64,000 nucleotides of DNA. Origin: Blastocatellia bacterium (GTDB taxonomy: Bacteria > Acidobacteriota > Blastocatellia > UBA7656). This document shows positions 31,380-63,431 of the stretch, one piece after another. The DNA is taken from contig CAVXWP010000009.1 in the NCBI GenBank assembly GCA_963765495.1, positions 809,240 through 873,239 on the forward strand, given 5' to 3'. The notes beneath the pieces were generated by a model that was given only the letters and a program-made list of their open reading frames with translations, ran no database searches and was not told the origin of the DNA. The position numbers and the translations under genes are program-made. Numbering within the stretch: the stretch's first letter is position 1; each line of letters opens with the position of its first letter.

Positions 31380-31592
31380 ATACACGAATAATTCTTCTAT
31401 TTCGTGTGCTTCGTGTATTTCGTGGTTCACTTTTTGTTAAGACAGAATTTCTAAACCGAGAATTGCTGACAAGACAAGCCCTTTGTTATCAGTGTCATCA
31501 AGAAGGTGATTGAAATGCTTAATTACGAACCGATAAAGAATCGGCTTTGGGTTGTTGAGGAGACTCGAATAAGAATTCGCGGGGAGAAAGAA

Positions 31593-42938: not shown

Positions 42939-43254
42939 TCAAGGCCCAATTTTAGGCGATCCAATTTTTTGACTCTTCGAGCAATGGACAGAAAAAGAGT
43001 AATAAGGTTTATTTGAGCGAATGGAGGAGGGGAACAGGCCACGGATGCCGCGGATCAGGCGGATTTATGCGGGGCCGATCATATGATGACTAATCCGCGA
43101 AAACACGTCTGATCCGCGTTTATCCGTGGCCTATTTCTATTTTGCCTTTCAAAATTTTGGAAATCTGAATGAGTTTGCCCTACTGCTAACTGTTGCACCG
43201 AGTCCAGGTTGCCAGCTTGCGCTACCCGAGCGGCGCAAGATAAACTCTTGCCTT

Positions 43255-44307
43255 ATGGCGACAACCGAGAGTGCTCAACTGTACTTCAAGCAAGCCAAAA
43301 TGATCGGGCCGGTAGTATCGAATCCGCCGGTCTGTTTGTATCTGGAAACAACCAACCGATGTAATCTGCTCTGCCAGCACTGCCCTCGCACATTTGCTTC
43401 GGTCGAGCGCCCGGCCGATCTTTCATTCGAGCAGATGAAGCTGATCGTCGAACAGGTGCCCAACCTCAAGCAGGCAGTTCTACACGGCATCGGCGAGCCG
43501 TTAATCAACAAAGAATTGCCCGCTATGATCAGCTATCTGAAGGAGCGAGGCGTCTATGTTCTGTTCAATTCCAACGGCACGATGCTCTATCCGCACATTC
43601 AGAGACAGTTGATTGACAGCGGTTTGGACGAGTACCGCGTATCGCTCGACGCAGCGGACGCGAAAACATTCGCAAGGGTTAGGGGGCTTCCCCGTTTCGA
43701 TCTGATTGTCAAAAACGTGCGCGAGCTTGTTGCGCTGAAGAAGCAACTTGGCATAGAGCATCCGCGCCTGTCGCTCTGGCTTGTAGGGATGAAAGAGACG
43801 CTCGCCGAGCTTGTGGCCTTTGTCCAGCTTGCCCACGATATGGGCGTAGGCGAAGTCTATTTGCAGAGGCTGGTTTTCTTTGACGACCAGCAGAACGGGC
43901 AAGGGTTTGCCCGACCCGACCAGGCGCTTTTCGGCACGGTTGATGAGGAAGAGGCGCGATTGATTGCCGAAGCCCATATGATAGCCGATGAACTGGGGGT
44001 GACGTTTCACGCATCGGGGGCGACTACGCCAGAGCAAAGCCTGATGCCCCGCGACGATGATCAGCCGTGGAATCTGTGCCGACGCCCCTGGACGTTGATG
44101 TACATAACGGCTAACGGCAATGTGCTGCCGTGCTGCATTTCGCCCTTCGCCGAACGCGATTACGATTCGCTCATTTTAGGCAATGCGTTCGAGCAGCCTC
44201 TGATGGACATATGGAATGAACATCTCTATCAGAAATTCAGAAACGATCTTCAAAGCGATCACCCGCACAGCGCGTGCAAAAACTGTGGCGTGCGTTGGAG
44301 CCTGTAG
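43255..44307 (+). CDS. Radical SAM protein with C-terminal Cys-rich (SPASM-like) domain
   Basis: CNLLCQHC (Cx3Cx2C) near the N-terminus; C-terminal CRRPW...CCISP...CKNCG cysteine cluster. Confidence 0.8.
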   Translation: MATTESAQLYFKQAKMIGPVVSNPPVCLYLETTNRCNLLCQHCPRTFASVERPADLSFEQMKLIVEQVPNLKQAVLHGIGEPLINKELPAMISYLKERGVYVLFNSNGTMLYPHIQRQLIDSGLDEYRVSLDAADAKTFARVRGLPRFDLIVKNVRELVALKKQLGIEHPRLSLWLVGMKETLAELVAFVQLAHDMGVGEVYLQRLVFFDDQQNGQGFARPDQALFGTVDEEEARLIAEAHMIADELGVTFHASGATTPEQSLMPRDDDQPWNLCRRPWTLMYITANGNVLPCCISPFAERDYDSLILGNAFEQPLMDIWNEHLYQKFRNDLQSDHPHSACKNCGVRWSL

Positions 44308-51404: not shown

Positions 51405-52043
51405 ATGCAGCTATTGCTTGCAGTGCTCATAGAGTTCTGGAGTCTCCTCAGAAAACTCGGGGGGCTTGGCCTGATCCTTATGGGTTTTCTTGACAGTTCC
51501 GTCATTCCAACCCCGGGCGGGTTGGATTTGCTGACCATCGTGCTTGCGGCGGGGCAAAAAACCTGGTGGCCTTATTATGCCGCGATGGCTGTTGCCGGGT
51601 CGGTTATCGGCGGGTATCTGAGCTATGAACTTGGGCGCAAGGGCGGTGAAGAGGCCATTGAAAAAAGAATGTCCAAAAAGAAATTTGACCGCGTATGCCG
51701 AGCCTTCGAGAAATGGGGATTCGGAGCCGTCTTTGTACCCACGATCCTGCCTCCCCCTTTTCCGATAGGTCCGATTTTTATGGGCGCGGGGGCGCTTGAT
51801 TATCCGCTCAAAAAATTCCTGCTCGCGCTCACCGCAGGCCGCGTCATCAGATTCACTATAGTCGCTTACATGGCTTCAAGATATGGCCAGTACGTAATAA
51901 AGTTCTTCTCAGATAATTACGTGATGATACTCCTGATAATCGCGGGGCTGACGGCAGCAGGAGGCTTAGCCTTTTTTCTTTTCCGCTCACACGACAAACA
52001 AACCAAAAAGAAAGCGTCCGATGCCACGGCAAGCGGAGATTAA
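51405..52043 (+). CDS. DedA/YqaA family membrane protein
   Basis: GFLDSSVIPTPGGLDLL motif and 4-5 TM helices. Confidence 0.7.
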   Translation: MQLLLAVLIEFWSLLRKLGGLGLILMGFLDSSVIPTPGGLDLLTIVLAAGQKTWWPYYAAMAVAGSVIGGYLSYELGRKGGEEAIEKRMSKKKFDRVCRAFEKWGFGAVFVPTILPPPFPIGPIFMGAGALDYPLKKFLLALTAGRVIRFTIVAYMASRYGQYVIKFFSDNYVMILLIIAGLTAAGGLAFFLFRSHDKQTKKKASDATASGD

Positions 52044-54178
52044 ATGACCGGCACAGGGACGGCCATCTCTTCTCCGCCAACAGGCGCAAGTGGAATTATT
52101 AACCGGAACTCGGTTCCGTGGCCGTCGCGTGCGGGGCTCTTGAGTTCTATAATGCCGCCAAGCTCAACGATACGGCGCTGAACTATGGCAAGTCCCAATC
52201 CCGTGCCTCTGGACTTGGTGGTATAGAAAGGCTCGAACACCCGGCGCTGATCTTCTTCGGGAATGCCCGGCCCCGTGTCTGTGATCGTAAGCATCACGCT
52301 GGACGAAGACGGGGTGCCTCTCTCCGAGTGGGTCTTTTGCCTGTCGAATTCCACGCTCGCAACCACGGCGACCTCTCCCCCCTCGCCCGTTGCCTGAAGA
52401 CCGTTGAGCACAAGATTGCCGAGCGCCTCGCGCACCGCCGAGGCCTGCGCGCCTGTAAGCGTCACATCCTGATCAACCACAACGTTCAGCGCGACGCGCA
52501 GTTCGCGAGCCTCTTTGCCAATGAGTGCCATCGTGGAGTCGAGCAATTCCGACATCGACACGGGGCGGCTGTCTTGATGATTTGGGCGCGAGAAGGCGAG
52601 AAGTTGCGAAACAGTCCGGTTGAGGCGATCTATTTCGCTGACGATCAACTCCAGATCACGGTCGTATTCCTTGAGCGACTCTTCTTCGCGCATCACCTGG
52701 GCTATGGATTTGATCGAAGAGAGCGGGTTTTTGACTTCGTGCGCTACGGTAGCGGCCATCTGTCCAAGCGTAGCCAGTCGCTCGCGCGCGGCAAGCTCAC
52801 GTTCGAGTCGTATCTTTTCTTCTACAAGCAGGCAGCCTTCGACTTCGATGGCTACCTGCCCCGCCAGCACATCGAGAATAGATCGCTTCTCAGATGTCAA
52901 CGTCTGAGCTTCGGCCTCTATTATCATCAGCCCTATAACTTTGTTTTCGCGTCTGAGGCCGTAAGCGATGCTCGCGCCCAGTTCCGTCAAATCCTCGTCC
53001 GTCTCGATCATATCCGATTGCCAGAGGCGGAGCTTTTCAATCAGCCGCCGCTCGGGGCCTTCGGCGAGCGTAGCGATTGAAGGGACTACGCGAACCCGCG
53101 CCAGATCAAGCCCCCGGCGAATGATCTCTTCCGTGTACCGCACAACCGCGTCGAGTTCACCAAGCCCCGCAGTGCCTGCCGACACCTGTCGCACAACGTC
53201 GCGGTACAACCCGATCTCATGAGCAAACAGGCGATGCACCATTCTCTCGATCACCCGTATGACGGGACCGGCCAGCGCGACCATCCCGAGTATCAATATC
53301 GCTTCGATCACTCCGGGCCGCGACCCAAATCGCTCGACAAAAAATTGATCCAGTTGCCTCACGCCGTAAGTGTAAACCGCTATAAAGACGACCGCGAATC
53401 CCGCGTACATCAAGCTGTCTTTTATGATGATGTCCACTATCTTGTAGCGATAGACGTAGTAGGCCACAAAGAAAGTCGGCAAAAGCGACAGCAAAATGTA
53501 GGCTACCCAGAGAAAATCGTTCGGGCCTGAGCGACGCAACCCGACTATGGCGAATTCGAACCCGCCTATGATGAACAGGAAAATGGCGAGCAATTTGAAG
53601 AACGCTCGCTCGCGTGTGGCAGATATATTTAGGCGATCCTTGATCACCCAGTCAATTGCCGACGCCGACCAGAAGGCATACATCCACCATACGGAATAGG
53701 GAATAAGCAATCTTCTGAGCTTTACAAAAAACAACTGGTAATCGCCGGTATTGATCAGGTAGATCGCATAAGGCAGCACGATCATCGGCGCATAAAAAGC
53801 CAGCCCCGCGATTCGGGCCTGCCTCTCGCTTGCAGTCCGATTCTTATTAAATGAACTCCAGACGGCAAAGTGCGCGTGAAGTAGCGCGGAAGGGACCAGC
53901 GCTACGCCGATCATAGTAATGGTATCCCAGACTCTCAAAAGAGAGGTTAGCCGCTCGCTGCCAAGCAGCAGAAGGTGCAGCATAGTGAGCATATTTCCGA
54001 GAAACCACCCGCCCAGACAAAGACCCAGCAATACGAATGTGCGTTCGGCAAGCGTCATATGCTCGCGTGCGCCCAGCCGCCTCTTCCAGATCAACCAGGC
54101 GATGTAGAGGTGCAGCGCCGCCCCGGTGGCGAATCCTACGAGCTTTAATATTTCAAGCAGTGACATAACCGAAGACAA
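52040..54178 (-). CDS. Sensor histidine kinase with N-terminal multi-TM sensor region
   Basis: HisKA H-box ATVAHEVKNPLSSI and HATPase_c G-boxes (DTGPGIPE, GTGLGLAIV). Confidence 0.85.
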   Translation of the reverse strand: MSSVMSLLEILKLVGFATGAALHLYIAWLIWKRRLGAREHMTLAERTFVLLGLCLGGWFLGNMLTMLHLLLLGSERLTSLLRVWDTITMIGVALVPSALLHAHFAVWSSFNKNRTASERQARIAGLAFYAPMIVLPYAIYLINTGDYQLFFVKLRRLLIPYSVWWMYAFWSASAIDWVIKDRLNISATRERAFFKLLAIFLFIIGGFEFAIVGLRRSGPNDFLWVAYILLSLLPTFFVAYYVYRYKIVDIIIKDSLMYAGFAVVFIAVYTYGVRQLDQFFVERFGSRPGVIEAILILGMVALAGPVIRVIERMVHRLFAHEIGLYRDVVRQVSAGTAGLGELDAVVRYTEEIIRRGLDLARVRVVPSIATLAEGPERRLIEKLRLWQSDMIETDEDLTELGASIAYGLRRENKVIGLMIIEAEAQTLTSEKRSILDVLAGQVAIEVEGCLLVEEKIRLERELAARERLATLGQMAATVAHEVKNPLSSIKSIAQVMREEESLKEYDRDLELIVSEIDRLNRTVSQLLAFSRPNHQDSRPVSMSELLDSTMALIGKEARELRVALNVVVDQDVTLTGAQASAVREALGNLVLNGLQATGEGGEVAVVASVEFDRQKTHSERGTPSSSSVMLTITDTGPGIPEEDQRRVFEPFYTTKSRGTGLGLAIVQRRIVELGGIIELKSPARDGHGTEFRLIIPLAPVGGEEMAVPVPVI

Positions 54179-54337
54179 TAAACTTCAACTGGATGGCAAG
54201 TCAGGTCTAAACGCTACGGCTTACTGTAAACGTCGGCGGAAAGAAATGTCAAAGCCCTTTGAGGGCGAGCGAGAATCCGCGTGGCCTGATCTATGATATG
54301 TGGATACAATGTCAGGGCGGGAATCAAGGATCAGCAA

Positions 54338-55024
54338 ATGAAGGCCACCGACAAAGAAGAGACTCTCAAGGCTTATGAGCGCCACGCCTCATCGGTAGAC
54401 GCGGAGTTTCACCGTGTCTTCGAGCAGTTTGCCGACCGCATGCAGTGCGGTAAAGGCTGTTCGATGTGTTGCAGTCAGATGTTTTCGATCTCGCTAATCG
54501 AAGCCGCCTACATATCTCGCGCAGTAAAAGCTATGCCCGAAGAGCGCCGCCACCGCCTGCGCGCCTCGGCTCGCGATTACATCGCAAAGGCCAGAAAATT
54601 GACCTTAGACAACGATGAAGACGACGGCGAAGAAGCCATAACGCCGCGCCCCGGATTGAGACTTCCCTGCCCGGCGCTCATCGATGATGCCTGCTCGATC
54701 TATGATGCGAGGCCGCTCATCTGTCGCAAGTGGGGCATACCGCTTTTCAATCCAAAAAAGCCTGTGGAACTTCAAGCCTGCGAGCTGAATTTTCGCCCCG
54801 GCGAAGAGGTTGATATAACCGGATTGCTCGAACCCCAGGTGTCGCTGCTGGAAGAGTGGGTCGAACTCAAAGACCAGACAAGAAAAACTCTTCGCCATCC
54901 GAAGATGACAACTACCGTGGCTGAAGCGATAATGTATGACTTTGAAGATATCTTATTTAACGAAGAAGAAGGACAAAGAAAACATGGTTTTGAAGCTGCA
55001 AGAACTGAGACGATACGTGATTGA
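54338..55024 (+). CDS. YkgJ family cysteine-cluster protein (CxxCxxCC)
   Basis: CGKGCSMCC motif. Confidence 0.65.
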   Translation: MKATDKEETLKAYERHASSVDAEFHRVFEQFADRMQCGKGCSMCCSQMFSISLIEAAYISRAVKAMPEERRHRLRASARDYIAKARKLTLDNDEDDGEEAITPRPGLRLPCPALIDDACSIYDARPLICRKWGIPLFNPKKPVELQACELNFRPGEEVDITGLLEPQVSLLEEWVELKDQTRKTLRHPKMTTTVAEAIMYDFEDILFNEEEGQRKHGFEAARTETIRD

Positions 55025-55274
55025 TAATCGAGTTGAAATCAAATTCAGCGACCCCGATTCCAGCCACCAGTTCCTACTCAACAACAAGGGGCAGATAAAG
55101 ATTTTAAGCGAAGACAAGGATTCCCGCCTTGAGGATATTTTTGCCTCTGTTCAAACCTTTGAGGTAATCAATGAAGATAAGACGCAGCAGATGTCGCGGG
55201 CGGCTCTGGCCGAGGCAGTCGGCGAAGCGTTCAAGCGGCGCGGATTTGCCGCCTGGAAAGATGAGGAAGAGTAA
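54984..55274 (+). CDS. Hypothetical small acidic protein
   Basis: ORF only; overlaps the 3' end of the preceding ORF in a different frame. Confidence 0.3.
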   Translation: MVLKLQELRRYVIDNRVEIKFSDPDSSHQFLLNNKGQIKILSEDKDSRLEDIFASVQTFEVINEDKTQQMSRAALAEAVGEAFKRRGFAAWKDEEE

Positions 55275-55333
55275 TTCAAAAAGGCCACCGAGATATTTCG
55301 GTGGCCTTTGTTGTTTTCAAATCAGAGGTCAGG

Positions 55334-57460
55334 TTAGTCGCCAAAACCGGCTCTCTCCTCCTGCGCCTGCCCCTTCCCCTTGCTTCCCATCTGCACCAGC
55401 TTCCCTTCCACCTTCGGCCCTACTCCCAACTGTACCAACTTCGCCTCCGGCTCCCCGCTCTCTTTCAATACGTGCTGCCGGTACAACTTCGCCATCCTCA
55501 AGTTCTCCGCTTCGCTCAACTTCGCTGCCCTCGCCCTCTGCTTCTCTTCCCTCGCCGTCTTCGCTATCCCTAACTCGTCCAGGTCGTGTTGCACTTCCCT
55601 CGTGATTATCTCTTCCTTCAACACCAGATTGTGCTCTACACTGTTTAACTCTACTGCTCTCCCTCCCGCAAATATCTCGTGCCTCCCGTACTCCTCATAC
55701 CACTTCGTCAAACTCGCCGTCATGTGCATCTTCTCTACTATGTTCCTCCACCCTATCCCCGTGTTGTATGCGCAGAAACTTATCTCCCCTTCCTGCGTCG
55801 CATACGGGATTATGCACCTCTCCGTCCGCCGAAAATCATAGTTGAACAAATCCTGAAACCACATCCCCGCTATGAACAGGAAGTTCCACCTGTCTGCTCT
55901 CCTCTTCTCTATGTCTTCCTTCGTCCGGTCTCCTGAAACCTTCCCATAATTCTTCCCCGTCGCTCCCCACGTCTTGTCAAACTTCGTCAACAAATCCTTT
56001 AACTTGAAATGCGTCGGCGACTGGTACGGGTCGTAGTTCTTCATCAAGGCCAGGGCCATCCCCACTATCGACAGCCACTTCCCTCTCCCAGCATCGTTGA
56101 CCTTCATCACATCCTTCGCCAACTGCTCCCCGTCCAAAAACGCCGTCACTGGCACCGACTCCTTCGTCTCCTTGTCCACCATGATCGCCATACCTACTCC
56201 ACAATTCGGATGGCATCCACAACTCAACTGCCCCCAGTCCGCCTCTGGCCCGTGCACCAGATCCGACCAGTCTGAAAATGTGCTCATAAACGAGATCGGA
56301 AACCAGTCTCTCACTGGCTCTCCCAGCCCCGTCTGTTTCTTCACATCGTGCGCCAGGTGCGACAGCGTGTATCTCTGCGCCATTCTCCGCTCGTCCGTGA
56401 TCGCCTCATCTCGCCCCGTGAACGAAACGGGCTGGAACGACAAAAACGAGGTCTTCTTTGGATTATCTAGCGCAAACTGGATTATCCGCCCCACCTGCTC
56501 GTTGTTTATCCCGTTTATGATCGTTGTCACTGGCACAATCTCCACTCCCGCGCTGTGGAGGTTCTCGATTGCTCGCAACTTCACATCAAAGAGGTTCCCG
56601 ACTTTTCTGTGCTCGTTTGCAGCGTTGCCGATCCCATCGAATTGCAGATACGCATATCTCAGCCCCGCTTCTGCCGCTTGACGCGCAAACTCGGCGCTCT
56701 TTGCAAACTCTATCCCGTTTGTAGCCGCCTGCACGCTGTTGTAGCCAACCTTGCGTGAATACCTGACGGCATCCAAAAAGTAGGGCGAAAGCGTTGGCTC
56801 CCCGCCCGAAAACTGAACGCTCAACTGGCGGCGGGGCTTGATAGAAATCGCGTTGTCGAGCATGGTCTTGATGTCATCCCAGGTGAGTTCGTGAACAAAG
56901 CCAACCTGATTGGCATCCATAAAACAGGGGTCGCACATCATGTTGCAGCGATTTGTGAGATCTATCGTAAGGACAGAGCCGCGCCCGTATTTTATGGTAG
57001 AAGAGCCGTGATCGTGAAGGGTCTCGTCGTTGTGAGCGCGGATGTCAGAGCCAGGAAAGACCTGTTCAAGGTGTTTGAAGAAATCGGCGTCGATAGCCAT
57101 GATGTCTTCGAAGTGGCCGTGTTTAGGGCAATCCTTGACCATGAGGATATTGCCGTCGCGTTCGATGATCTGGGCCTTGATTTCGCCGATGCGTTCATTT
57201 TTGAGGATATCGACGGGAAGAATGCCGTCGAGGACCTGCTGGCGGATTTCGGGAACGCAGCGAGGGCAGAGGGAATCGGTAGTGCGAGGCCAGCCGAGAG
57301 GAGGCTTGACCTTCTGATAGGATTTCAAGAGAGGCTTATCGCTCCAGGCAGGAGTGAAGGAGGGATTCTGTTTGATGCGATTGAATCTCTCGAACAGGGC
57401 CCAGGAGCCGCGAGCGGCCAAGGTCAATCCTTTTTCAACATACTTTATTGGCTTGTGCAT
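55334..57460 (-). CDS. Large radical SAM protein (708 aa) with N-terminal Cys/His zinc-ribbon-like motif and long C-terminal extension; family not recognised
   Basis: TIDLTNRCNMMCDPCF (Cx3Cx2C), upstream CPRC...CPKHGH, additional CGCHPNCG cluster, Lys/Glu-rich tail. Confidence 0.75.
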   Translation of the reverse strand: MHKPIKYVEKGLTLAARGSWALFERFNRIKQNPSFTPAWSDKPLLKSYQKVKPPLGWPRTTDSLCPRCVPEIRQQVLDGILPVDILKNERIGEIKAQIIERDGNILMVKDCPKHGHFEDIMAIDADFFKHLEQVFPGSDIRAHNDETLHDHGSSTIKYGRGSVLTIDLTNRCNMMCDPCFMDANQVGFVHELTWDDIKTMLDNAISIKPRRQLSVQFSGGEPTLSPYFLDAVRYSRKVGYNSVQAATNGIEFAKSAEFARQAAEAGLRYAYLQFDGIGNAANEHRKVGNLFDVKLRAIENLHSAGVEIVPVTTIINGINNEQVGRIIQFALDNPKKTSFLSFQPVSFTGRDEAITDERRMAQRYTLSHLAHDVKKQTGLGEPVRDWFPISFMSTFSDWSDLVHGPEADWGQLSCGCHPNCGVGMAIMVDKETKESVPVTAFLDGEQLAKDVMKVNDAGRGKWLSIVGMALALMKNYDPYQSPTHFKLKDLLTKFDKTWGATGKNYGKVSGDRTKEDIEKRRADRWNFLFIAGMWFQDLFNYDFRRTERCIIPYATQEGEISFCAYNTGIGWRNIVEKMHMTASLTKWYEEYGRHEIFAGGRAVELNSVEHNLVLKEEIITREVQHDLDELGIAKTAREEKQRARAAKLSEAENLRMAKLYRQHVLKESGEPEAKLVQLGVGPKVEGKLVQMGSKGKGQAQEERAGFGD

Positions 57461-57622: not shown

Positions 57623-57904
57623 TCAAGCCAGATATTCGGCAAGCTCCCGCTCAAGTTCTTCCGGGCCGACCTGCTCACCCCGATTAAGCCGGTCCAGAGT
57701 GCGATCAATTACGGCCTTCGCTTCATCCTTGTGGTCCTCACTCAAGAACCCATCGAGGAAATGATCCCCCGCGAGGGCGTGGTTGATCTCCGATTCCTTG
57801 TTGTGCTCGTCCAACTCCGTGAAGTAGACAACCTTGTATTTGCGGTTGTAGCTGGCTTCACGATAAACCTCAAACATTATCTTTTCCGAATTTCGCATAC
57901 TCAA
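57623..57904 (-). CDS. Hypothetical small protein
   Basis: 93-aa ORF downstream of the activase operon. Confidence 0.4.
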   Translation of the reverse strand: MSMRNSEKIMFEVYREASYNRKYKVVYFTELDEHNKESEINHALAGDHFLDGFLSEDHKDEAKAVIDRTLDRLNRGEQVGPEELERELAEYLA

Positions 57905-58006: not shown

Positions 58007-61000
58007 CTAGTCTCCCGAAGCGCCTATCTGATACTGTGGCACATTGCCTGAAAGCACGGGCAGCGAAATAATTGAACCTCGCCGCGAACTGGCTTTCTCT
58101 TCTGCCTCGGCCTGCAATCGCAGAAGACGCTCGAATTCGGCAAGCTTCTCTTCCAGCGTCCTTACCTTGCCTTTGTTCTTGATCATGTCTTCACGATAGC
58201 GCTTGAGGAAATAACCTATCGTCTCGACTCTGATCTTGATAGAGCCGGTCGGTTTATTTTCGTCTATGTCCTTGAAGCAGAAGTAAGGCGTACCCGCATT
58301 CTGAACGGTCTCTTCGACCACGGTGTAAATCGGCGCGTCGTGGCCGCATTTGAACGACGAAAGCTCCAGCGCTACTAGATTCGGATGGCGCGCCGTGTAT
58401 TTCGCGGCCCAGATCTTGCGGCTGGTGTTTTCCGAATAGGAATTCTTCCACGCATCCTGAATGTCCATCGGATGCTTGATTATTCCCGCCCGCACTTCGT
58501 CGCCAAACAACCGCCACAGTATGTCGTCATCTATCGGCAGCGAGTCCATAGTAAAGACCGGGTATCCAAGCTTCTGGAACTCTTCAAGTATCTCGTGATT
58601 GATGCCCGGATCGTTATGATAAGGACGACCAAGCATCACGACTCCAAGCCCGTCTTCGGCTTCGAGTTTTTCGAGCACCTCGCGGCCCGCGCCGCGCAGC
58701 GTCACATTATAGAGAGTATCGAGCGCCTTGAATCCTTCTTCGATGGCCCGATGATTCTCCTCCTGCGTGAGACCTAGCAGGTCTTTGAATACTTCATACA
58801 TCTGCTTTTCAAGCAGTGGCGGCTCATCGAGATTCAGAATCGGGTCAAGGTATCTGGTGCCCAATTGCGCAAACAGATCGCCCTCTTTGATGAATGCCGC
58901 CTTGACCGCTTCGGGCGTTGCCGTGACGGTAGGGCATGCGCGGCTGCCCTGCGTGTTGACAAGATCGGTGGGCAGAGCGTCTATCATCGGGAAGAAGATA
59001 AAATCGAGCGGCTTCTTTTTGTGATGAACCTGGAGCAGGTTGTGAACGTGCGGTATGCCCACCTTTGACGGGAAGCACGGATCGATGGCCCCGCGTTTCG
59101 CGCCTTCTTTGTAAAGCTGCTCGGTTGTGTAATCGGAATAAACCAGATTCTGCGGTTTGACTCCGAGGCTTTCAAAGTAAGCCGAAACAAACGGATTGAT
59201 CGAATACTGATTAAGAACGCGCGGAATGCCTATGCGCAGGGACTCGCGTTTCTTGAGCAATTCGTTGCGCTGTTTCTGCGACTTTGTGAAAGCATATTTA
59301 TGAGCCGGGTCCGCCACCTTCTGCGGATTGTAGCTGCGCCATGCGGCTTTGGCCGCGATCTCGACAAAGTTCGGATTTGCGGACTTCATCGAATCGAGCC
59401 CCTTCTTGATGACCCGCATATCGGCCACGTCTTCGACCAGCCCCTTCTCGCAAGAGTTGCCTACGATAAGGCGCTGCACGCCCGGCAGGATCGGAATCTT
59501 CGATTTGCGCGGCGGTTCGGTGCTCTCTTTATCCGACACCTTCACGTCAATAAAGGTGCGCAGACATTTGTTCTTGCAGAAGTAACACCTGGTGTCCTCA
59601 TTGCGATGCGTGACATAGGTGATATCCTCGACGCTCTTCAATCCGATAAAGCTTGTCCGGCGACCGTTTTCCCAGAGTCTTACCGCTTCGATTGCAGCCC
59701 CAATCGCGCCCGATTCGCCGCAGTGCTCGTGGACTATGATTCGCGGCTGGATATCTTTGCCCTTAAAGCGCGACTCGATAAAATCAACCTGAGACTTGAC
59801 CGCCGCGAGGTTGTGCTGAGTGCCGCCCTGCAAGACGAAGTTTGTACCGAGCGCGGCGATGTTTGGTATCTGCGAAACATAGAGCCAGATGTTTTTCGGA
59901 AGCACGGCGGCAAGACCCGCCATGATCTCTTCGGGCTTCCAGCCCTGTCGCTGAAAGTCAACAATGTCGGATTGCATAAAGACCGCGCATCCGTAACCGA
60001 ACGTGGGCATCGCCTGCGCGCTGAAGGCTATGTCGGCGTACTGCTCTACCTGCATGCCAAAACCTTCGGCCGTCGATTGCAGGAAGTAGCCGTTTCCAGC
60101 CGAGCATTGCGTGTTCAATTTGAAGTCTTTGACCTGACGATTCTTCAGGATTATCAGCTTGATGTCCTGTCCGCCCACGTCAACGATCACATCCACATCT
60201 TTGTAAAACTGCAAAGCGGATTCGGTATGCGCGACCGTCTCGACTAAAGCGACATCGGCGTTGAGCGTGTCTCTCAAAATGTCTTTTGCGTATCCGGTAG
60301 TGCCTACGCCGAGTACGTTGAGAGTTGCGCCCTGATCGGTTACCTGCTTTTCGAGTTTGCCGAAGACTTCCATGGTGTCTTCTATCGGGTTGCCTTTTGA
60401 CAGTTGATAAGTCTTCACAAGAATCTTGCGGTCCTTATCGAGCAGCACGGCTTTCGTAGAAGTCGAGCCGCCGTCCAGACCTATGAAACCTTCAACGACC
60501 TGCCCCGGTTCAAAAGTGGCGGGCGTGAACTTCTTGCGCTTGTATCTCTCCTTGAATTCCAGCAGATCCTTTTCGTCTTCCGACAGTCCCTTTCCTCCGG
60601 CCTTCTTCTTCTCTTCGATGCGACCGTAGGTGATGTAATACTCAAGATCGGCAGTGCCGCGATAAACGCCTATACTATCGTCTTCGGACTTGCCGAATTC
60701 GACAGCGCCGAGTGCCGCGAAGTACTGCGCGTTTTCCGGCACTTTTATCAGGTCTTTCGGGTCAACCCCTTCGGGCAGCGGATAGTTGCGCTCTTCCCAC
60801 ACCTTCGGGATATTGGACTTCCAGCCTTCGACCATGCCCCGGATGTATGTATTGGGACCGCCAAGCAGCAAAACGTGCGGGCGCAGGGTGTTGCCTCGCG
60901 TAAGCACGGCGAGGTTCTGGCCTATGATCGCTTCAAACAGCGAGGCCATAAGCTCAGAAGGCGGCACGCCCATTTTCTGAAGCGAGTTGATGTCGGTTTC

Positions 61001-61543
61001 GGCAAACACGCCGCACTTGCCCGCTACCGGATGGAGCTTTATATCGTAGTAGCCCATGTCGCAGAGCTTGTCGGGCGGGATGCGGAGTTTGGCGTTGATC
61101 TTATCGATGACCGCGCCGGTTCCGCCCGCGCATTTGTCATTCATCGAAGGGATTTTTTTCTTCTTGCCGGTTTCCGGGTCTTCCTTGAATATGATGATCT
61201 TGGCGTCCTGACCGCCAAGTTCGATGACCGAACCGGCTTCGGGGTAAAGTTTTTCGACCGCAAGCGATACGGCGTTGACCTCCTGCACAAACTTGGCCCC
61301 GATCATGGTCGCAACGTTTCCGCCTCCCGACCCTGTGATGAATATCCTCACGTTTTCTTTGGGAATCGGGAAATCGGCTTCGATGCGCTTGAGGAATTCC
61401 AGGCATTTTTCGGGCTGTTTGGTATCGTGACGCTGATAATCCTGCCATAGGATTTCGTCTTTTACGGGGTCTACAACTACCGCCTTGACGGTCGTCGAAC
61501 CAACATCCAAACCTATGTATAGTTTTTCGTAGTCTTGACTCAT
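58007..61543 (-). CDS. Fused CoA-substrate-specific enzyme activase (two BcrAD/BadFG/HgdC-type ATPase domains) with C-terminal dehydratase-associated domain (YjiL/YjiM-like)
   Basis: Two acetate/sugar-kinase-fold ATPase domains (LDVGSTTVKAVVVD, GLDGGSTSTKAVLLD) and a long C-terminal domain; 1178 aa. Confidence 0.75.
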   Translation of the reverse strand: MSQDYEKLYIGLDVGSTTVKAVVVDPVKDEILWQDYQRHDTKQPEKCLEFLKRIEADFPIPKENVRIFITGSGGGNVATMIGAKFVQEVNAVSLAVEKLYPEAGSVIELGGQDAKIIIFKEDPETGKKKKIPSMNDKCAGGTGAVIDKINAKLRIPPDKLCDMGYYDIKLHPVAGKCGVFAETDINSLQKMGVPPSELMASLFEAIIGQNLAVLTRGNTLRPHVLLLGGPNTYIRGMVEGWKSNIPKVWEERNYPLPEGVDPKDLIKVPENAQYFAALGAVEFGKSEDDSIGVYRGTADLEYYITYGRIEEKKKAGGKGLSEDEKDLLEFKERYKRKKFTPATFEPGQVVEGFIGLDGGSTSTKAVLLDKDRKILVKTYQLSKGNPIEDTMEVFGKLEKQVTDQGATLNVLGVGTTGYAKDILRDTLNADVALVETVAHTESALQFYKDVDVIVDVGGQDIKLIILKNRQVKDFKLNTQCSAGNGYFLQSTAEGFGMQVEQYADIAFSAQAMPTFGYGCAVFMQSDIVDFQRQGWKPEEIMAGLAAVLPKNIWLYVSQIPNIAALGTNFVLQGGTQHNLAAVKSQVDFIESRFKGKDIQPRIIVHEHCGESGAIGAAIEAVRLWENGRRTSFIGLKSVEDITYVTHRNEDTRCYFCKNKCLRTFIDVKVSDKESTEPPRKSKIPILPGVQRLIVGNSCEKGLVEDVADMRVIKKGLDSMKSANPNFVEIAAKAAWRSYNPQKVADPAHKYAFTKSQKQRNELLKKRESLRIGIPRVLNQYSINPFVSAYFESLGVKPQNLVYSDYTTEQLYKEGAKRGAIDPCFPSKVGIPHVHNLLQVHHKKKPLDFIFFPMIDALPTDLVNTQGSRACPTVTATPEAVKAAFIKEGDLFAQLGTRYLDPILNLDEPPLLEKQMYEVFKDLLGLTQEENHRAIEEGFKALDTLYNVTLRGAGREVLEKLEAEDGLGVVMLGRPYHNDPGINHEILEEFQKLGYPVFTMDSLPIDDDILWRLFGDEVRAGIIKHPMDIQDAWKNSYSENTSRKIWAAKYTARHPNLVALELSSFKCGHDAPIYTVVEETVQNAGTPYFCFKDIDENKPTGSIKIRVETIGYFLKRYREDMIKNKGKVRTLEEKLAEFERLLRLQAEAEEKASSRRGSIISLPVLSGNVPQYQIGASGD

Positions 61544-61628: not shown

Positions 61629-63431
61629 TTAATCGGCGGCGTAGCTGGATGCGCGTTTGCCTTTATCTTTCGCCATCAATTCGGAAACGTGCATGACAAA
61701 GTTGGCCGCCGAGCCGATCACACCCTTGTGGTGCGGCACATGGTAGAGGCCGCTTTGAAGCTCGGGGTGTTCATCAGCATAGGCGCGCACCTCGTCGAGC
61801 GTGAGGCCGGTCTGCTCAAGTATGCGGGCCATCTCCTGTTTGGCCTTCACCTTAGCTTCGCCCAGAGCCATCTGCACGCGGCTGTGCGCATTGATCTCGC
61901 CCTCGCCCGATGTCTCGATTGGCAGGTAGATCATGTCTTTATACTGATTGACGACCGCCGATTGAGCGCCGTCTGATTGCGTGGAAGGCATACAGCCGAA
62001 CGGCTTGAGCGACAGGACCATATGAGCGAGGTCTTTGTTGGAGTAGTAAATATTCTTTGCGACTTCGAGGTGTCCTTCGCCGCCCGCCGCCCGCGAATTG
62101 TAGTAAGGATGAGCCGCTCGCTGAAGTTCGTACTGATCTACAAGCTCGTGCGGCAGGTTATTGAGCGCCTCGCGCAGGCGATTCCACTCGCGTTTGAATA
62201 TCGCTTCGGCAAGCGTAAGCTGGGTTGTCGCCTTGCGGACCTTCATCTCGTTCTTGAGTCGCTTGTCGATTCTCCAGGCCGGCGGCATCGCTTCATCTTC
62301 GCTTACGCCCTTGCGGTCAACCTTCTGCTGCTTGGCCTGATGAATCAGGTACATAATCCACGTTCCGATTGGCTCGACTATGACCTGCGCGCCTTCGCGT
62401 TCGAGGAACTTGAACATGTTGAAGTTGCCGTCGCCTTCTGTGGTCTGAGCCCAGAATTCGCCCGTGACCTTGACGATGGGCTTGACGCGGGTGCGGTCTA
62501 CCTTGACGGTTGCAAGCCGGTCGCCCACGGCCTTGAAGGCCGAGGTGTATTCATCGCCGAACAACTGGTCTACGAATTTGCCAATGTACTCGGCCGTGCC
62601 GCCGACCTTTGGCAGGTTCTTGAGGAAGCCGCCCGCTTTGCCCTCAAGCGTAAACGAACGATGCTTGCGATAGACTTCGCGCAGAAGTTCGAGCGACTCT
62701 TCCATAGCGGTGTTGGTATCGCCCTCGCTCAACTCGTAGGGTCGGATTTGATAGCAGGCATCGCCGATCAGATCGCCCATGTTCAGCGCGTTCAGGATCG
62801 CGAGGAAGAAGTCTACGTTTAGCTCAAGCCCGGCTTCGGCCTCGGCCTGATTCAATCCGCCGGATTGCTGAAACAGCATTACGCGGAATCCCTCGAAGCC
62901 GGAATTGCGAAGCGCCAGCCGGTATTCGCTCTCATACATCCCAAAGCGGCACGGACCGCAAGCGCCCGCCGTGAAGAAGACATAGTTGTCTATAATATCC
63001 TGGCGAGACAGGCCCTGCTGTTCGAGCGATTGAAGATACTGCACAAGATTTCCGACCGTGAAATAGGTGGGATTGCACTGGCCGTTGTTGCCGTATTCTT
63101 TGCCCAACTGGAAAGCAGCTACGTTGGGAGTGGGCAGATACTGACATTTGTAGCCGAGCCCTTCGAGCGCACCCTGTATCAATCGCTCGTGCCTCCAGGT
63201 CAATCCGCCGAACAGGAGCGTCGTATAGGCTCGTTGCTCCTTCGTAAAAGTGCGCTCGACCGGCTTTGCGAAGTGTTCAACGCTCTTTTCCTCGATGCCC
63301 AGTTCCTGCAAAAGTCTCAATCTCTCCTGTGCCAGCTTCTTTTGAATCGTTTCTTCTTTGGACGAGATTTGAACCAGTGATTGCAAAGACTCCGGCTGCG
63401 CGCCAGACTGCCTTTCCGTACTTGCGCTCAT
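61629..63431 (-). CDS. 2-hydroxyacyl-CoA dehydratase family (HgdB/YjiM-like) protein
   Basis: 600 aa; Cys residues GACGPCRFG typical of the HgdB-like family; operonic with the activase gene. Confidence 0.65.
   Translation of the reverse strand: MSASTERQSGAQPESLQSLVQISSKEETIQKKLAQERLRLLQELGIEEKSVEHFAKPVERTFTKEQRAYTTLLFGGLTWRHERLIQGALEGLGYKCQYLPTPNVAAFQLGKEYGNNGQCNPTYFTVGNLVQYLQSLEQQGLSRQDIIDNYVFFTAGACGPCRFGMYESEYRLALRNSGFEGFRVMLFQQSGGLNQAEAEAGLELNVDFFLAILNALNMGDLIGDACYQIRPYELSEGDTNTAMEESLELLREVYRKHRSFTLEGKAGGFLKNLPKVGGTAEYIGKFVDQLFGDEYTSAFKAVGDRLATVKVDRTRVKPIVKVTGEFWAQTTEGDGNFNMFKFLEREGAQVIVEPIGTWIMYLIHQAKQQKVDRKGVSEDEAMPPAWRIDKRLKNEMKVRKATTQLTLAEAIFKREWNRLREALNNLPHELVDQYELQRAAHPYYNSRAAGGEGHLEVAKNIYYSNKDLAHMVLSLKPFGCMPSTQSDGAQSAVVNQYKDMIYLPIETSGEGEINAHSRVQMALGEAKVKAKQEMARILEQTGLTLDEVRAYADEHPELQSGLYHVPHHKGVIGSAANFVMHVSELMAKDKGKRASSYAAD

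What the first reader, a model, noticed from the sequence alone, without database searches (positions are those of the whole stretch)
55334..57460. A 708-aa radical SAM protein with N-terminal zinc-ribbon-like Cys/His motif and an extra C-x-C-x3-C cluster
The radical SAM core (CNMMCDPCF) sits about 180 aa into the protein. It is preceded by CPRC...CPKHGH and followed by a CGCHPNCG cluster and a long Lys/Glu-rich tail, so the architecture is unusual. One candidate is the lipid-modifying radical SAM enzymes (Tes / membrane-spanning-lipid-synthase-like) reported in Acidobacteria, but I cannot confirm that from sequence alone. Neighbouring genes are a YkgJ Cys-cluster protein and a histidine kinase.
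Basis: inference. Interest (0 to 1): 0.5.

Follow-up and report, generated by a model that had tools for sequence, protein, structure and literature searches.

The report
Acidobacterial Tes-like lipid synthase operon
This gene encodes an Acidobacteria-specific variant of the archaeal tetraether lipid synthase (Tes) that lacks one of Tes's iron-sulfur clusters, and it lies in a recurring gene cluster with a PlsA/Ger-like candidate ester-to-ether reductase, giving a testable candidate gene set for how soil bacteria make the membrane-spanning "brGDGT" lipids used as palaeoclimate proxies.

Summary
It is a clear homolog of archaeal tetraether synthase Tes/GDGT-MAS (PDB 7TOL E=2e-64; AlphaFold model vs 7TOM TM 0.87; next family, MoaA, E~1e-8).

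It is a distinct clade rather than a canonical Tes:
- It scores 319 bits on the curated Tes model (cutoff 450).
- It lacks the CX3CX2CX2H ligands of the N-terminal [4Fe-4S] cluster.
- It keeps the rubredoxin-like site, the SAM site and the C-terminal cluster residues (plus Met and Tyr).
- It has conserved N- and C-terminal extensions.

The clade is 75-86% identical across at least 597 relative-encoding stretches found in species-representative genomes; the 80 best are almost all Acidobacteriota.

The main new point is context. The gene ends a co-directional string: 600-aa protein I, then 1178-aa protein H, then a ~91-aa protein, then the Tes homolog. H has two BcrAD/BadFG ATPase domains plus DUF2229, the architecture of PlsA/Ger. 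This module precedes a Tes-family gene in 8 of 8 neighbourhoods sampled. The Tes partner is the query type, an intermediate type, or a canonical Tes (551 bits).

Best reading: a membrane-spanning lipid synthase coupled to an ether-forming system. Enzymatic function is unproven.

The parts
55334..57460 (-). Tes-homolog (TesH): 708-aa radical SAM protein of an Acidobacteriota-specific Tes/GDGT-MAS-like clade
   Evidence: ORF. NF045702 Tes model 318.9 bits, cutoff 450. 7TOL E=2e-64, 34% identity over 460 aligned positions. AF2 model pLDDT 81, pTM 0.80. Foldseek 7TOM TM 0.87 over the target.
57098..57289 (-). Rubredoxin-like (Zn_ribbon_HMPTM) domain, aa 58-121. C65, C68, C111 and H114 correspond to MJ0619 C9/C12/C33/H36, but with a 42-residue spacer instead of 20.
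   Evidence: Pfam PF23545. Alignment to 7TOL. Ligand motif from Lloyd et al. 2022. Invariant in 77 orthologs. Loop expansion seen in alignment A1.
56992..57046 (-). Region (aa ~139-157) where archaeal Tes carries the [4Fe-4S]N ligands C73/C77/C80/H83. Here it reads DIRAHNDETLHDHGSSTIK, with no Cys.
   Evidence: Alignment gives gap/H151/S154/K157 at the ligand positions. There is no Cys between residues 111 and 172. pLDDT is below 50 at 142-149. The motif is present in canonical representatives and absent in the query clade.
56471..56959 (-). Radical SAM core, aa 168-330: C172/C176/C179 and the GGEPT motif. Of the MJ0619 5'-dA-contacting residues, F180 lies in this core; K286 also falls in it but is an R-to-K substitution; Q343, S346 and R350 lie just downstream.
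   Evidence: Pfam PF04055. Mapping onto MJ0619 F106/R210/Q268/S271/R275.
55772..56221 (-). C-terminal auxiliary-cluster region, aa 414-563. C420, C549 and C563 align with MJ0619 C338/C455/C470. M533 aligns with the labile Met439 and Y553 with the conserved Tyr459. C414 and C416 are additional Cys.
55337..55663 (-). C-terminal extension absent from archaeal Tes, aa ~600-708: a poorly conserved linker, a moderately conserved long helix (632-668), then a variable Lys/Glu-rich tail ending in a conserved GFGD.
   Evidence: Conservation profile. AF2 secondary structure and low pLDDT. C-termini of homologs.
57623..57898 (-). ~91-aa conserved protein of unknown function (listed by the ORF listing as a 93-aa ORF from a TTG at 57904; the ATG at 57898 fits homologs better).
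   Evidence: 53-76% identical orthologs lie in the same position in L083-L087, and a small ORF follows H in L088/L089. No Pfam hit and no PDB hit.
58007..61543 (-). Protein H, 1178 aa: two BcrAD_BadFG ATPase domains plus DUF2229. This is the 'BBD' architecture shared with PlsA and Ger (glycerol ester reductase).
   Evidence: Pfam and NCBIfam. Ger architecture as described in the literature. 78-88% identical orthologs always lie next to a Tes-family gene.
61629..63431 (-). Protein I, 600 aa, in no curated family. Its predicted fold weakly resembles the catalytic subunits of 2-hydroxyacyl-CoA dehydratase and benzoyl-CoA reductase, so it is a candidate PlsR-like partner of H.
54293..55024 (+). 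CxxCxxCC (YkgJ-type) Cys-rich protein, convergent with TesH. It is a recurrent flank of the cluster.
   Evidence: PF03692. 68% identical orthologs flank the cluster in L083 and L087.
54936..55274 (+). 112-aa ORF (probably ~96 aa from an internal ATG), a conserved partner of the CxxCxxCC gene.
   Evidence: 41-52% identical 96-aa ORFs lie next to the CxxCxxCC gene in L083 and L087. No Pfam hit.
55280..55309 (.). 13-bp-stem hairpin between the convergent 3' ends, a likely bidirectional terminator that closes the I-H-91aa-TesH transcription unit.
   Evidence: No comparable terminator was found between I, H, the 91-aa gene and TesH on the minus strand.

Best explanation
TesH is a Tes/GDGT-MAS-type radical SAM enzyme and is the acidobacterial candidate for the membrane-spanning-lipid synthase.

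Proposed mechanism, by analogy with MJ0619 (inferred): the radical SAM [4Fe-4S] cluster cleaves SAM. The 5'-deoxyadenosyl radical abstracts H from the terminal methyl of a lipid tail, here most plausibly an iso-C15 acyl or alkyl chain of a glycerophospholipid. The substrate radical is parked on a sulfide of the C-terminal [4Fe-4S] cluster. A second SAM-derived radical on a second tail attacks it and forms the tail-to-tail Csp3-Csp3 bond. The product is an iso-diabolic-acid-type C30 chain.

This clade would do so with the rubredoxin-like Fe site and two, not three, [4Fe-4S] clusters.

In this genome the gene is the last of a probable operon, I-H-91aa-TesH. H plus I form a PlsA/PlsR- or Ger-like ATP-driven reductase module that would convert the glycerol ester bonds of the same lipids to ethers. 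Together the cluster would make ether-linked membrane-spanning lipids (iso-diabolic acid glycerol ethers or brGDGT-type lipids).

Shown here: homology, fold, retention or loss of cofactor ligands, distribution, and gene linkage. Inferred: substrate, chemistry, cluster count, co-transcription, and the role of H and I.
For: 1. Family and fold. Tes is the top curated family. 7TOL E=2e-64. Foldseek 7TOM/7TOL E~5e-36 with TM 0.87-0.88, against 1e-8 and TM ~0.5 for the next family.

2. Catalytic apparatus retained and invariant. This covers the CX3CX2C motif, the 5'-dA contact residues (F180, Q343, S346, R350), C420/C549/C563, M533 (= Met439) and Y553 (= Tyr459).

3. Slot equivalence. Orthologous I-H-small-protein modules (H 78-88% identical) are followed by a Tes-family gene in 8 of 8 neighbourhoods. 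The partner is the query type in the window, L083, L084 and L087. It is a 51% intermediate in L085. It is a canonical Tes with the full [4Fe-4S]N motif, scoring 551 bits (above the 450 cutoff), in L086, and a 93-99% identical protein carrying the same motif in L088 and L089.

4. H has the BBD architecture that the literature gives as the conserved core of Ger, the experimentally shown ester-to-ether reductase. The predicted fold of I is closest to dehydratase and benzoyl-CoA-reductase catalytic subunits.

5. Distribution. At least 597 relative-encoding stretches in species-representative genomes at 75-82% identity, the 80 best kept almost all Acidobacteriota, spanning Blastocatellia, Terriglobia, Bryobacterales and Vicinamibacterales and including cultured Acidipila rosea. 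This matches the near-universal iso-diabolic acid of subdivisions 1, 3, 4 and 6. No Mss homologs are reported for the phylum, and 'stringent' Tes homologs are reported in only 3 of 14 producers.

6. Most genomes have TesH without an adjacent I-H. This fits the literature report that Tes alone accompanies tetraesters while Tes plus Ger accompanies brGDGTs (Chen et al. 2025 as cited).

7. In L081, plsY and gpsA lie 1-3 kb upstream.

8. There is no transmembrane segment. The N-terminal helix is strongly amphipathic (muH 0.54), as expected for a peripheral lipid enzyme.
Against: - No experiment on any bacterial Tes homolog is available in the searched literature. A 2026 preprint calls them 'not experimentally validated'.
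- A distant Tes homolog from Thermoanaerobacter ethanolicus made no membrane-spanning lipid in E. coli.
- The protein falls below the curated Tes cutoff (319 vs 450 bits) and lacks the [4Fe-4S]N ligands. The role of that cluster is unknown, so its loss could mean different chemistry or a different electron supply.
- Most Blastocatellia are aerobes, whereas radical SAM and BCR/HAD-type enzymes are oxygen-sensitive.
- Ether lipids of cultured subdivision 4 strains were previously attributed to the elb cluster, and Ger homologs were reported absent from those strains.
- H was not compared directly with Tmari_0479 or PlsA, because no sequence was available.
- Co-transcription is inferred only from gene order and gaps of 85-162 bp.
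- Which three Cys ligate [4Fe-4S]C in MJ0619 was inferred from family conservation and was not read from the paper.
Confidence: 0.6

Rival explanations
1. TesH acts on membrane lipids but performs a different radical modification from tail-to-tail coupling. Examples would be cyclopentane ring closure, a mid-chain cross-link (H-shaped brGMGT-type), or another C-H functionalisation. In this reading the canonical Tes type (Koribacter, Solibacter, L086) is the true coupler.
For: It is below the curated Tes cutoff and lacks one cluster. It has a clade-specific Cys (C414) and extensions. Solibacter usitatus is reported to carry two Tes homologs, which suggests a division of labour. Archaeal MA_1114, a second Tes paralog, made only trace macrocyclic archaeol.
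Against: It occupies the same operon slot as the canonical Tes, and the two were never seen together in the 8 clusters. The substrate-radical-handling residues (C-terminal cluster Cys, Met, Tyr) are retained. Its phylum-wide distribution matches iso-diabolic acid, whereas canonical-type homologs are reported in only 3 of 14 producers. It shows no similarity to GrsA- or Gms-type enzymes beyond the radical SAM core.
Confidence: 0.2
2. The I-H module is not an ester-to-ether reductase. It is instead a dedicated ATP-driven low-potential electron-delivery ('archerase') system, or another auxiliary system, that serves the radical SAM enzyme. The small 91-aa and CxxCxxCC proteins would act as carriers. 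The cluster would then make ester-linked membrane-spanning lipids only.
For: BcrAD/BadFG ATPases are ATP-coupled electron activators (established knowledge of the BCR/HAD family). Linkage to a Tes-family gene is strict, 8 of 8, whatever the Tes type. Tes chemistry needs two low-potential electrons per C-C bond. I has no detectable HGD-D or DUF2229 domain. A Cys-rich YkgJ-type protein recurs nearby.
Against: H carries DUF2229 and I has a dehydratase-like fold. So the module contains catalytic-type subunits and not only activators, exactly as in PlsA/Ger, which by itself makes ethers in E. coli. Most acidobacterial TesH genes have no adjacent I-H, so TesH does not generally need it nearby.
Confidence: 0.12
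3. TesH has a non-lipid function, for example cofactor or peptide modification (the family's older annotation was a pterin methyltransferase), and the linkage with the BBD system reflects an unrelated reductive pathway.
For: Source annotations include '7,8-dihydro-6-hydroxymethylpterin dimethyltransferase'. The related TrsS family scores 209 bits. The function of most BBD-type proteins is unknown. No conserved lipid genes flank TesH in most genomes.
Against: The pterin annotation of MJ0619 was superseded by the structural and enzymological demonstration of GDGT-MAS activity. The TrsS score is far below its cutoff (490) and below the Tes score. A protein that passes the curated Tes equivalog threshold sits in the same cluster slot.
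Confidence: 0.06

Closest known systems
Archaeal tetraether synthase Tes / GDGT-MAS (MJ0619, PDB 7TOL/7TOM; Maeo_0574, MA_1486; NCBIfam NF045702)
   Same: Same overall fold (TM 0.87 over the target). Same rubredoxin-like 3Cys+His site. Same radical SAM CX3CX2C and SAM/5'-dA contact residues. Same C-terminal auxiliary-cluster Cys trio, labile Met and conserved Tyr. 34% identity over 460 residues. Soluble or peripheral, with no transmembrane helix.
   Different: No [4Fe-4S]N ligands (CX3CX2CX2H replaced by H/S/K). The rubredoxin loop is expanded (X42 vs X20). A conserved ~60-aa N-terminal extension includes an amphipathic helix. A ~130-aa C-terminal extension is present. There is an extra Cys at 414. 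It scores 319 bits against the 450 cutoff. It comes from a bacterial host whose lipids are iso-branched acyl or alkyl chains rather than phytanyl ethers.
Canonical-type bacterial Tes homologs (Ca. Koribacter versatilis and Ca. Solibacter usitatus, 40-42% identical to MA_1486; here represented by L086/L088/L089 and P0181-P0197)
   Same: Same family. In L086/L088/L089 the same operon context (I-H-small protein-Tes). Proposed in the literature for the same role, brGDGT or iso-diabolic tetraester synthesis.
   Different: Those proteins keep the [4Fe-4S]N motif and pass, or nearly pass, the curated Tes threshold (447-593 bits). They are ~540-625 aa and only ~34% identical to the query. In L086/L088/L089 the cluster is preceded by a PAS histidine kinase and a sigma54 regulator, and in L086/L088 also by a B12 radical SAM gene. 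None of these is seen next to the cluster in this window.
Ger (glycerol ester reductase, Tmari_0479) and PlsA/PlsR plasmalogen synthase. These are compared with the neighbours H and I, not with TesH.
   Same: H has the two BcrAD_BadFG domains plus DUF2229 ('BBD'), which the literature gives as the conserved core of Ger and the PlsA part. A second subunit-like protein (I) with a weak dehydratase/BCR-like fold is encoded adjacently.
   Different: The system is split into two genes in the order I then H. I has no detectable HGD-D or DUF2229 Pfam domain. An extra ~91-aa protein, and usually a TPR protein, belong to the module. No direct sequence comparison with Ger or PlsA could be made here.
Mss (bacterial membrane-spanning lipid synthase of Thermotoga and Thermoanaerobacter)
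   Same: A radical SAM enzyme postulated to use the same cluster-assisted Csp3-Csp3 coupling and producing diabolic or iso-diabolic acids. It has the same proposed physiological role.
   Different: It is a different radical SAM family. The literature reports no Mss homologs in Acidobacteria, and it has so far been found only in anaerobes. It was not compared by sequence here.

Membership tests
Tes / GDGT-MAS (tetraether lipid synthase) | Radical SAM CX3CX2C cluster and SAM/5'-dA binding residues | tested here: met
   C172/C176/C179. F180, Q343, S346 and R350 are identical to MJ0619 F106/Q268/S271/R275, and R210 becomes K286. PF04055 E=7e-19.
Tes / GDGT-MAS (tetraether lipid synthase) | N-terminal rubredoxin-like mononuclear Fe site (CX2C...CX2H) | tested here: met
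   C65, C68, C111 and H114 are invariant. PF23545 E=9e-13. The spacer is 42 residues instead of 20.
Tes / GDGT-MAS (tetraether lipid synthase) | N-terminal auxiliary [4Fe-4S]N cluster ligated by C73, C77, C80 and a His | tested here: not met
   The aligned positions are gap/H151/S154/K157, and there is no Cys between residues 111 and 172. The motif is present in canonical representatives and L086/88/89 and absent in the whole query clade.
Tes / GDGT-MAS (tetraether lipid synthase) | C-terminal auxiliary [4Fe-4S]C site with labile Met439 and conserved Tyr459 | tested here: met
   C420/C549/C563 align with C338/C455/C470, M533 with Met439 and Y553 with Tyr459. All are invariant in 77 orthologs. 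Which Cys are the actual ligands was inferred from family conservation.
Tes / GDGT-MAS (tetraether lipid synthase) | Overall four-domain fold | tested here: met
   AF2 model pLDDT 81. Foldseek 7TOM E=5e-36, TM 0.87 over the target, 546 aligned columns. The [4Fe-4S]N subdomain region is low-confidence.
Tes / GDGT-MAS (tetraether lipid synthase) | Score at or above the curated equivalog cutoff of NF045702 (450 bits) | tested here: not met
   318.9 bits. Clade relatives score 299-318, the canonical type 447-593, and L086 551.
Tes / GDGT-MAS (tetraether lipid synthase) | Catalyses tail-to-tail Csp3-Csp3 coupling of lipid chains | not testable with these tools
   This requires enzymology or genetics. 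The literature states that bacterial homologs are not validated.
TrsS radical SAM (seleno)protein (NF045646) | Score at or above the curated cutoff (490 bits) | tested here: not met
   208.9 bits, covering the radical SAM half only, and lower than the Tes score.
Mss (bacterial membrane-spanning lipid synthase) | Sequence homology to Thermotoga/Thermoanaerobacter Mss with its six conserved blocks | not tested
   No Mss sequence or model was available in the tools. The literature reports no Mss homologs in Acidobacteria.
Ger / PlsA-PlsR (for neighbours H and I) | Two BcrAD_BadFG activation domains followed by DUF2229 (BBD) | tested here: met
   H has PF01869 twice (aa 8-~300 and 354-620) and PF09989 at 770-1002. 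Architecture definition.
Ger / PlsA-PlsR (for neighbours H and I) | Dehydratase-type (HGD-D / PlsR-like) component | tested here: inconclusive
Ger / PlsA-PlsR (for neighbours H and I) | Direct sequence orthology to Tmari_0479 or C. perfringens PlsA/PlsR, and ester-to-ether activity | not tested
   Reference sequences could not be obtained with the tools. Activity needs experiment.

The most novel reading that the evidence does not exclude
The window carries the co-transcribed core of a bacterial pathway for ether-linked membrane-spanning (brGDGT-type) lipids. The first part is a Tes variant that achieves Csp3-Csp3 tail coupling with only two [4Fe-4S] clusters, which would show that the surface [4Fe-4S]N cluster of archaeal Tes is dispensable. 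The second part is a new split Ger-type reductase with two previously undescribed subunits (the 600-aa protein I and the ~91-aa protein). If so, uncultured Blastocatellia (subdivision 4) would be genuine brGDGT or ether-lipid producers through this operon rather than through the elb cluster. The query-type TesH alone would be the long-sought iso-diabolic acid synthase of the whole phylum.
Probability: 0.35. Interest if true: 0.8.

Novelty: new variant of a known kind. Interest (0 to 1): 0.62.

Why it matters
brGDGTs are among the most widely used terrestrial palaeotemperature and pH proxies. Even so, their biosynthetic genes and source organisms have been debated since the lipids were discovered about two decades ago.

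The literature searched here:
- proposes bacterial Tes homologs as the coupling enzyme,
- reports no Mss in Acidobacteria,
- finds 'stringent' Tes homologs in only a minority of iso-diabolic-acid producers,
- notes only genome-level co-occurrence of tes with ger.

This analysis adds three things:
1. The phylum-wide acidobacterial homolog is a distinct, extremely conserved clade missing one Fe-S cluster. Identity or score cutoffs tuned to archaeal Tes can therefore miss it, which affects every metagenomic survey of 'brGDGT potential'.
2. It is physically linked, in a recurrent operon, to a PlsA/Ger-like module and to several uncharacterised proteins.
3. Canonical and variant Tes types are interchangeable in that operon.

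Together these give a compact gene set that can be cloned and tested: TesH, I, H and the 91-aa protein, and in relatives a small radical SAM and a B12 radical SAM as candidates for methylation or cyclisation. They also provide a natural experiment on what the third cluster of Tes is for.

Tried and rejected
1. Synteny from the TesH side. None of the window's neighbours is adjacent to TesH in the 80 best genome-contig loci, and de novo clustering found no widely conserved neighbour. I first concluded the gene was stand-alone. I revised this when H-centred look-ups showed the cluster in 8 of 8 cases.

2. Exact-sequence contig look-up of the window's own protein failed. The taxon is therefore inferred from best hits only.

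4. Sigma54 promoter upstream of I. There is one 10/12 match at -304 in the window, but nothing is conserved in L083-L087. I did not claim it.

5. TPR gene. It is present between the small protein and Tes in L083-L085 and L087, but there is no gene or remnant in the window.

6. The small radical SAM partner (307-373 aa) adjacent to TesH in many Blastocatellia is absent from the 64-kb window. The window's SPASM and B12 radical SAM genes are not its orthologs.

7. Rfam found no RNA family in the window.

8. Supplementary Table S21 of Sahonero-Canavesi et al. and the paper of Chen et al. 2025 are not held. I could therefore not check which cultured strains carry which Tes type, nor read the Tes/Ger correlation at first hand.

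9. The 91-aa protein has no PDB relative.

10. The histidine kinase at 52040-54178 is not part of the recurrent neighbourhood.


Full report
OBSERVATION

The ORF lies at exactly 55334..57460 on the minus strand and encodes 708 aa.
- CPRC at residues 65-68.
- CPKHGH at 111-116.
- The radical SAM motif CNMMCDPCF at 172-180.
- CGCHPNCG at 414-421.
- A C-terminal 118 residues rich in Glu, Lys and Arg.

The protein has only 11 Cys. All 11, together with H114, H417, M533 and Y553, are invariant in 77 acidobacterial orthologs. Pfam finds Radical_SAM (168-330) and Zn_ribbon_HMPTM (58-121). The named neighbours (a CxxCxxCC/YkgJ-type protein and a histidine kinase) are correct.

WHAT IT IS: FAMILY AND FOLD

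- The best curated family is the tetraether lipid synthase Tes (NF045702, E=5e-95). The score is 318.9 bits, below the 450-bit equivalog cutoff. The second family, TrsS, scores 209 bits against a cutoff of 490.
- The only strong solved-structure match is GDGT-MAS/Tes of Methanocaldococcus jannaschii (7TOL, E=2e-64), covering query residues 93-579. Identity is 34% over 460 aligned positions.
- An AlphaFold2 model built on a 22-sequence alignment is confident (mean pLDDT 81, pTM 0.80).
- The model's best structural matches are 7TOM and 7TOL (E=5e-36 and 1e-34; TM 0.87-0.88 normalised to the target). The next family, MoaA, is at E~1e-8 and TM~0.5.

The protein is a Tes homolog.

COFACTOR SITES COMPARED WITH THE CRYSTAL STRUCTURE

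Lloyd et al. 2022 describe four metal sites in MJ0619:
- A rubredoxin-like Fe (C9X2C12X20C33X2H36).
- [4Fe-4S]N (C73, C77, C80 and a His).
- The radical SAM cluster.
- [4Fe-4S]C, with three Cys, the labile Met439 and a conserved Tyr459.

Mapping through the HMMER alignment gives the following.
- The rubredoxin-like site is kept (C65, C68, C111, H114), with a 42-residue spacer instead of 20.
- The radical SAM Cys are kept. The 5'-dA contact residues are kept as F180, Q343, S346 and R350, with K286 in place of R210.
- C420, C549 and C563 align with the three C-terminal Cys conserved across the family. M533 aligns with Met439 and Y553 with Tyr459.
- The [4Fe-4S]N ligands are absent. The aligned positions are gap/H151/S154/K157, and there is no Cys at all between residues 111 and 172. 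This loop is also the one internal low-confidence stretch of the model's N-terminal half (142-149).

C420 is a canonical ligand position. The C416 position is Cys in many canonical Tes proteins, although it is Ser in MJ0619. Only C414 is specific to this clade.

Relative to Tes, the protein therefore has one cluster-binding motif fewer, not one more. It also has:
- A conserved N-terminal extension (residues 31-60 are 82% conserved, and helix 2-29 is amphipathic).
- A C-terminal extension whose last ~50 residues are variable but end in a conserved GFGD.
- No transmembrane segment.

A DISTINCT, VERY CONSERVED ACIDOBACTERIAL CLADE

The 120 best database relatives are 79-100% identical. Where they are named, they come from Blastocatellia or Acidobacteriota MAGs.

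A scan of one genome per species found at least 597 stretches encoding relatives. The 80 best are 75-82% identical and span Blastocatellia, Terriglobia (including cultured Acidipila rosea), Bryobacterales and Vicinamibacterales.

An exhaustive search of 50%-identity cluster representatives gave 621 clusters at E<=1e-30 and a graded series of full-length relatives. Aligning them splits the family:
- Representatives with the CPxxCGxCxxH ([4Fe-4S]N) motif score 447-593 bits on the Tes model.
- The query clade lacks the motif and scores 299-319 bits.
- One intermediate representative (P0134) scores 414 bits.
- More degenerate relatives score 204-251 bits. One of these is from Terriglobus roseus and has also lost the C-terminal Cys.

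GENOMIC CONTEXT

At first the gene looked stand-alone. None of the window's neighbours is adjacent to it in the 80 loci, and no neighbour is widely conserved.

The upstream genes on the same strand changed that view:
- A ~91-aa ORF (57623-57898).
- H (58007-61543), 1178 aa, with two BcrAD_BadFG ATPase domains plus DUF2229.
- I (61629-63431), 600 aa, in no curated family.

H is itself 78-88% conserved in acidobacterial MAGs. Looking from H outward, all eight neighbourhoods examined (the window and L083-L089; seven are independent, because L086 and L088 are 99% identical) show the same order: I, H, a small protein, usually a TPR protein, then a Zn_ribbon_HMPTM/radical SAM gene.

Other recurring elements:
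- The CxxCxxCC protein and the adjacent ~96-aa ORF recur next to the cluster in L083 and L087, at 68% and 41-52% identity.
- A 307-373-aa radical SAM gene flanks TesH in many Blastocatellia but is missing from this window.

In the window, the intergenic gaps within the string are 85, 108 and 162 bp. No strong terminator lies within it. A 13-bp-stem hairpin at 55280-55309 closes it. About 570 bp of non-coding DNA precede I.

THE KEY COMPARATIVE RESULT

The I-H-small-protein module stays orthologous across clusters (H 78-88%, I 61-79%, small protein 53-76% identical). The Tes-family partner, by contrast, is swapped:
- Query type in the window, L083, L084 and L087 (81-83% identical to the query; L087 scores 318 bits).
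- A 51%-identical intermediate without the N motif in L085 (317 bits).
- A canonical Tes with CPQQCGLCNMH in L086, L088 and L089 (34% identical to the query; L086 scores 551 bits, above the curated cutoff).

In those last three loci the cluster is preceded by a PAS histidine kinase and a sigma54 response regulator. In L086 and L088 it is also preceded by a B12-binding radical SAM gene.

Occupying the same slot as a protein that passes the Tes equivalog threshold is the strongest evidence here that the query type does the Tes job in the same pathway.

WHAT H AND I ARE

Sahonero-Canavesi et al. define the conserved core of Ger (the ester-to-ether glycerol ester reductase, shown by expression in E. 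coli) as two PF01869 domains plus PF09989, abbreviated 'BBD'. A 2026 preprint states that Ger comprises PlsA plus PlsR, and that BBD-only hits represent the PlsA part. H has exactly this architecture.

I therefore treat I-H as a PlsA/PlsR- or Ger-like module. Membership is only partly tested.

MECHANISM PROPOSED

TesH is most likely the acidobacterial membrane-spanning-lipid synthase. By analogy with MJ0619, the steps are:
1. SAM cleavage produces a 5'-dA radical.
2. The radical abstracts H from a terminal methyl of a lipid tail.
3. The substrate radical is parked on a sulfide of the C-terminal cluster.
4. A second SAM-derived radical on another tail attacks it and forms the tail-to-tail bond.

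For Acidobacteria the natural substrate is an iso-C15 chain and the product an iso-diabolic-acid-type C30 chain.

The I-H module would reduce the glycerol ester bonds to ethers. The cluster would then yield ether-linked membrane-spanning lipids.

The distribution fits this model:
- TesH is phylum-wide, like iso-diabolic acid in subdivisions 1, 3, 4 and 6.
- The literature finds no Mss in the phylum, and 'stringent' Tes homologs in only 3 of 14 producers.
- The I-H linkage is restricted to some lineages. This parallels the report that Tes alone goes with tetraesters and Tes plus Ger with brGDGTs (Chen et al. 2025, as cited; the paper itself is not held).

What is shown: homology, fold, retention or loss of ligands, distribution and gene linkage. 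What is inferred: substrate, chemistry, number of clusters, co-transcription and the role of I-H.

CAVEATS AND RIVALS

Caveats:
- No bacterial Tes homolog has been validated in the literature searched.
- A distant Tes homolog from Thermoanaerobacter ethanolicus was inactive in E. coli.
- Two membership features fail: the curated score and [4Fe-4S]N.
- Blastocatellia are mostly aerobes.
- Ether lipids of cultured subdivision 4 strains were attributed to the elb cluster, and Ger homologs were reported absent there.

Rivals:
- A different lipid modification by the variant clade (about 0.2).
- I-H as an ATP-driven electron-delivery system for Tes rather than an ester reductase (about 0.12).
- A non-lipid function (about 0.06).

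NOVELTY AND VERDICT

The general idea, that acidobacterial Tes homologs make brGDGT-type lipids, is already in the literature. The finding is therefore not categorically new.

What appears new relative to the papers searched:
- A phylum-wide clade lacking one Fe-S cluster, which falls below the curated Tes cutoff and so may be missed by stringent identity or score thresholds.
- Its physical operon linkage to a split PlsA/Ger-like module with uncharacterised subunits.
- The interchangeability of canonical and variant Tes in that operon.

I classify it as a new variant of a known kind, with interest 0.62. A specialist would not be greatly surprised. However, the finding turns a long-standing open question, the genes for bacterial membrane-spanning ether lipids, into a compact and directly testable gene set.

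Noticed in passing
L081:6198-7223, L082:8924-9847, L083:2859-3884, L084:12112-13233, L087:16588-17595 (also L001-L003, L038): A 307-373-aa radical SAM protein that reaches no NCBIfam cutoff lies immediately next to TesH in many Blastocatellia. The copies are 67-77% identical to each other. It is absent from this 64-kb window. It is a candidate for a further lipid modification such as cyclisation or methylation.
   Followed up: partly
L086:2192-7539, L088:185-5532, L089:2219-5372: In the lineage where the I-H module is linked to a canonical Tes, the cluster is preceded by a PAS histidine kinase and a sigma54-dependent response regulator. In L086 and L088 it is also preceded by a 582-aa B12-binding radical SAM protein, a candidate methyltransferase. 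This hints at regulated (possibly redox- or oxygen-dependent) expression.
   Followed up: partly
L081:4029-5722: plsY (G3P acyltransferase) and gpsA (glycerol-3-phosphate dehydrogenase) lie 1-3 kb upstream of the small radical SAM plus TesH pair in one Blastocatellia contig. This is a glycerolipid context.
   Followed up: no
window 55337-55351 and homologs P0002-P0108: The variable Lys/Glu-rich tail of TesH ends in a conserved C-terminal motif, (A/P/S)(G/A)FGD, in the window protein and most (not all) homologs inspected. Its significance is unknown.
   Followed up: no
P0137 (Terriglobus roseus DSM 18391, WP_014786616.1): This is a 624-aa relative, 41% identical, that lacks both the [4Fe-4S]N motif and the C-terminal cluster Cys (239 bits on the Tes model). 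It is a degenerate paralog in a cultured iso-diabolic-acid-producing genus. Whether T. roseus also has the query-type gene could not be checked.
   Followed up: no
window 18973-20469 (+): A 498-aa B12-binding radical SAM protein lies 35 kb from TesH. It is only 25% identical to the cluster-linked B12 radical SAM of L086.
   Followed up: partly
window 43126-44307 (+): A 393-aa radical SAM/SPASM protein. Its best NCBIfam hit is the tungsten-cofactor oxidoreductase maturase model, far below cutoff. It is not an ortholog of the TesH-linked small radical SAM.
   Followed up: partly
window 10969-14123 (+): Six short co-directional ORFs, the first carrying CarboxypepD_reg and Plug domains. They look like a frameshifted or fragmented TonB-dependent receptor (compare the intact 1037-aa gene at 4721-7834). 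This is either a pseudogene or an assembly error.
   Followed up: no
window 23232-24467 (+), 31799-32521 (+), 30001-32000: A TnpB/IS605 OrfB-type gene (Cas12f-like TNB domain) and a DDE transposase. The transposase lies beside the lowest-GC stretch of the window (0.449, against ~0.53 elsewhere).
   Followed up: no
window 8166-9245, 9387-10436, 14285-15346 (all -): Three paralogous ~350-aa proteins that combine an N-terminal CarboxypepD_reg domain with TPR repeats.
   Followed up: no
window ~63735 (about 304 nt upstream of the start of gene I): A single sigma54-like -24/-12 element, TGGCGCGCAACTTGCC (10 of 12 consensus positions; six such matches in the 128 kb of both strands). It is not conserved upstream of I in L083-L087.
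   Followed up: yes
L075 (CAZTKA010000081.1) and P0374/L088 (GCA_035575015.1): Contigs carrying typical acidobacterial TesH or H genes (75-79% identical) are labelled 'uncultured Bordetella sp.' and 'Alphaproteobacteria bacterium'. This is probably mis-binning or misclassification, or else horizontal transfer.
   Followed up: no
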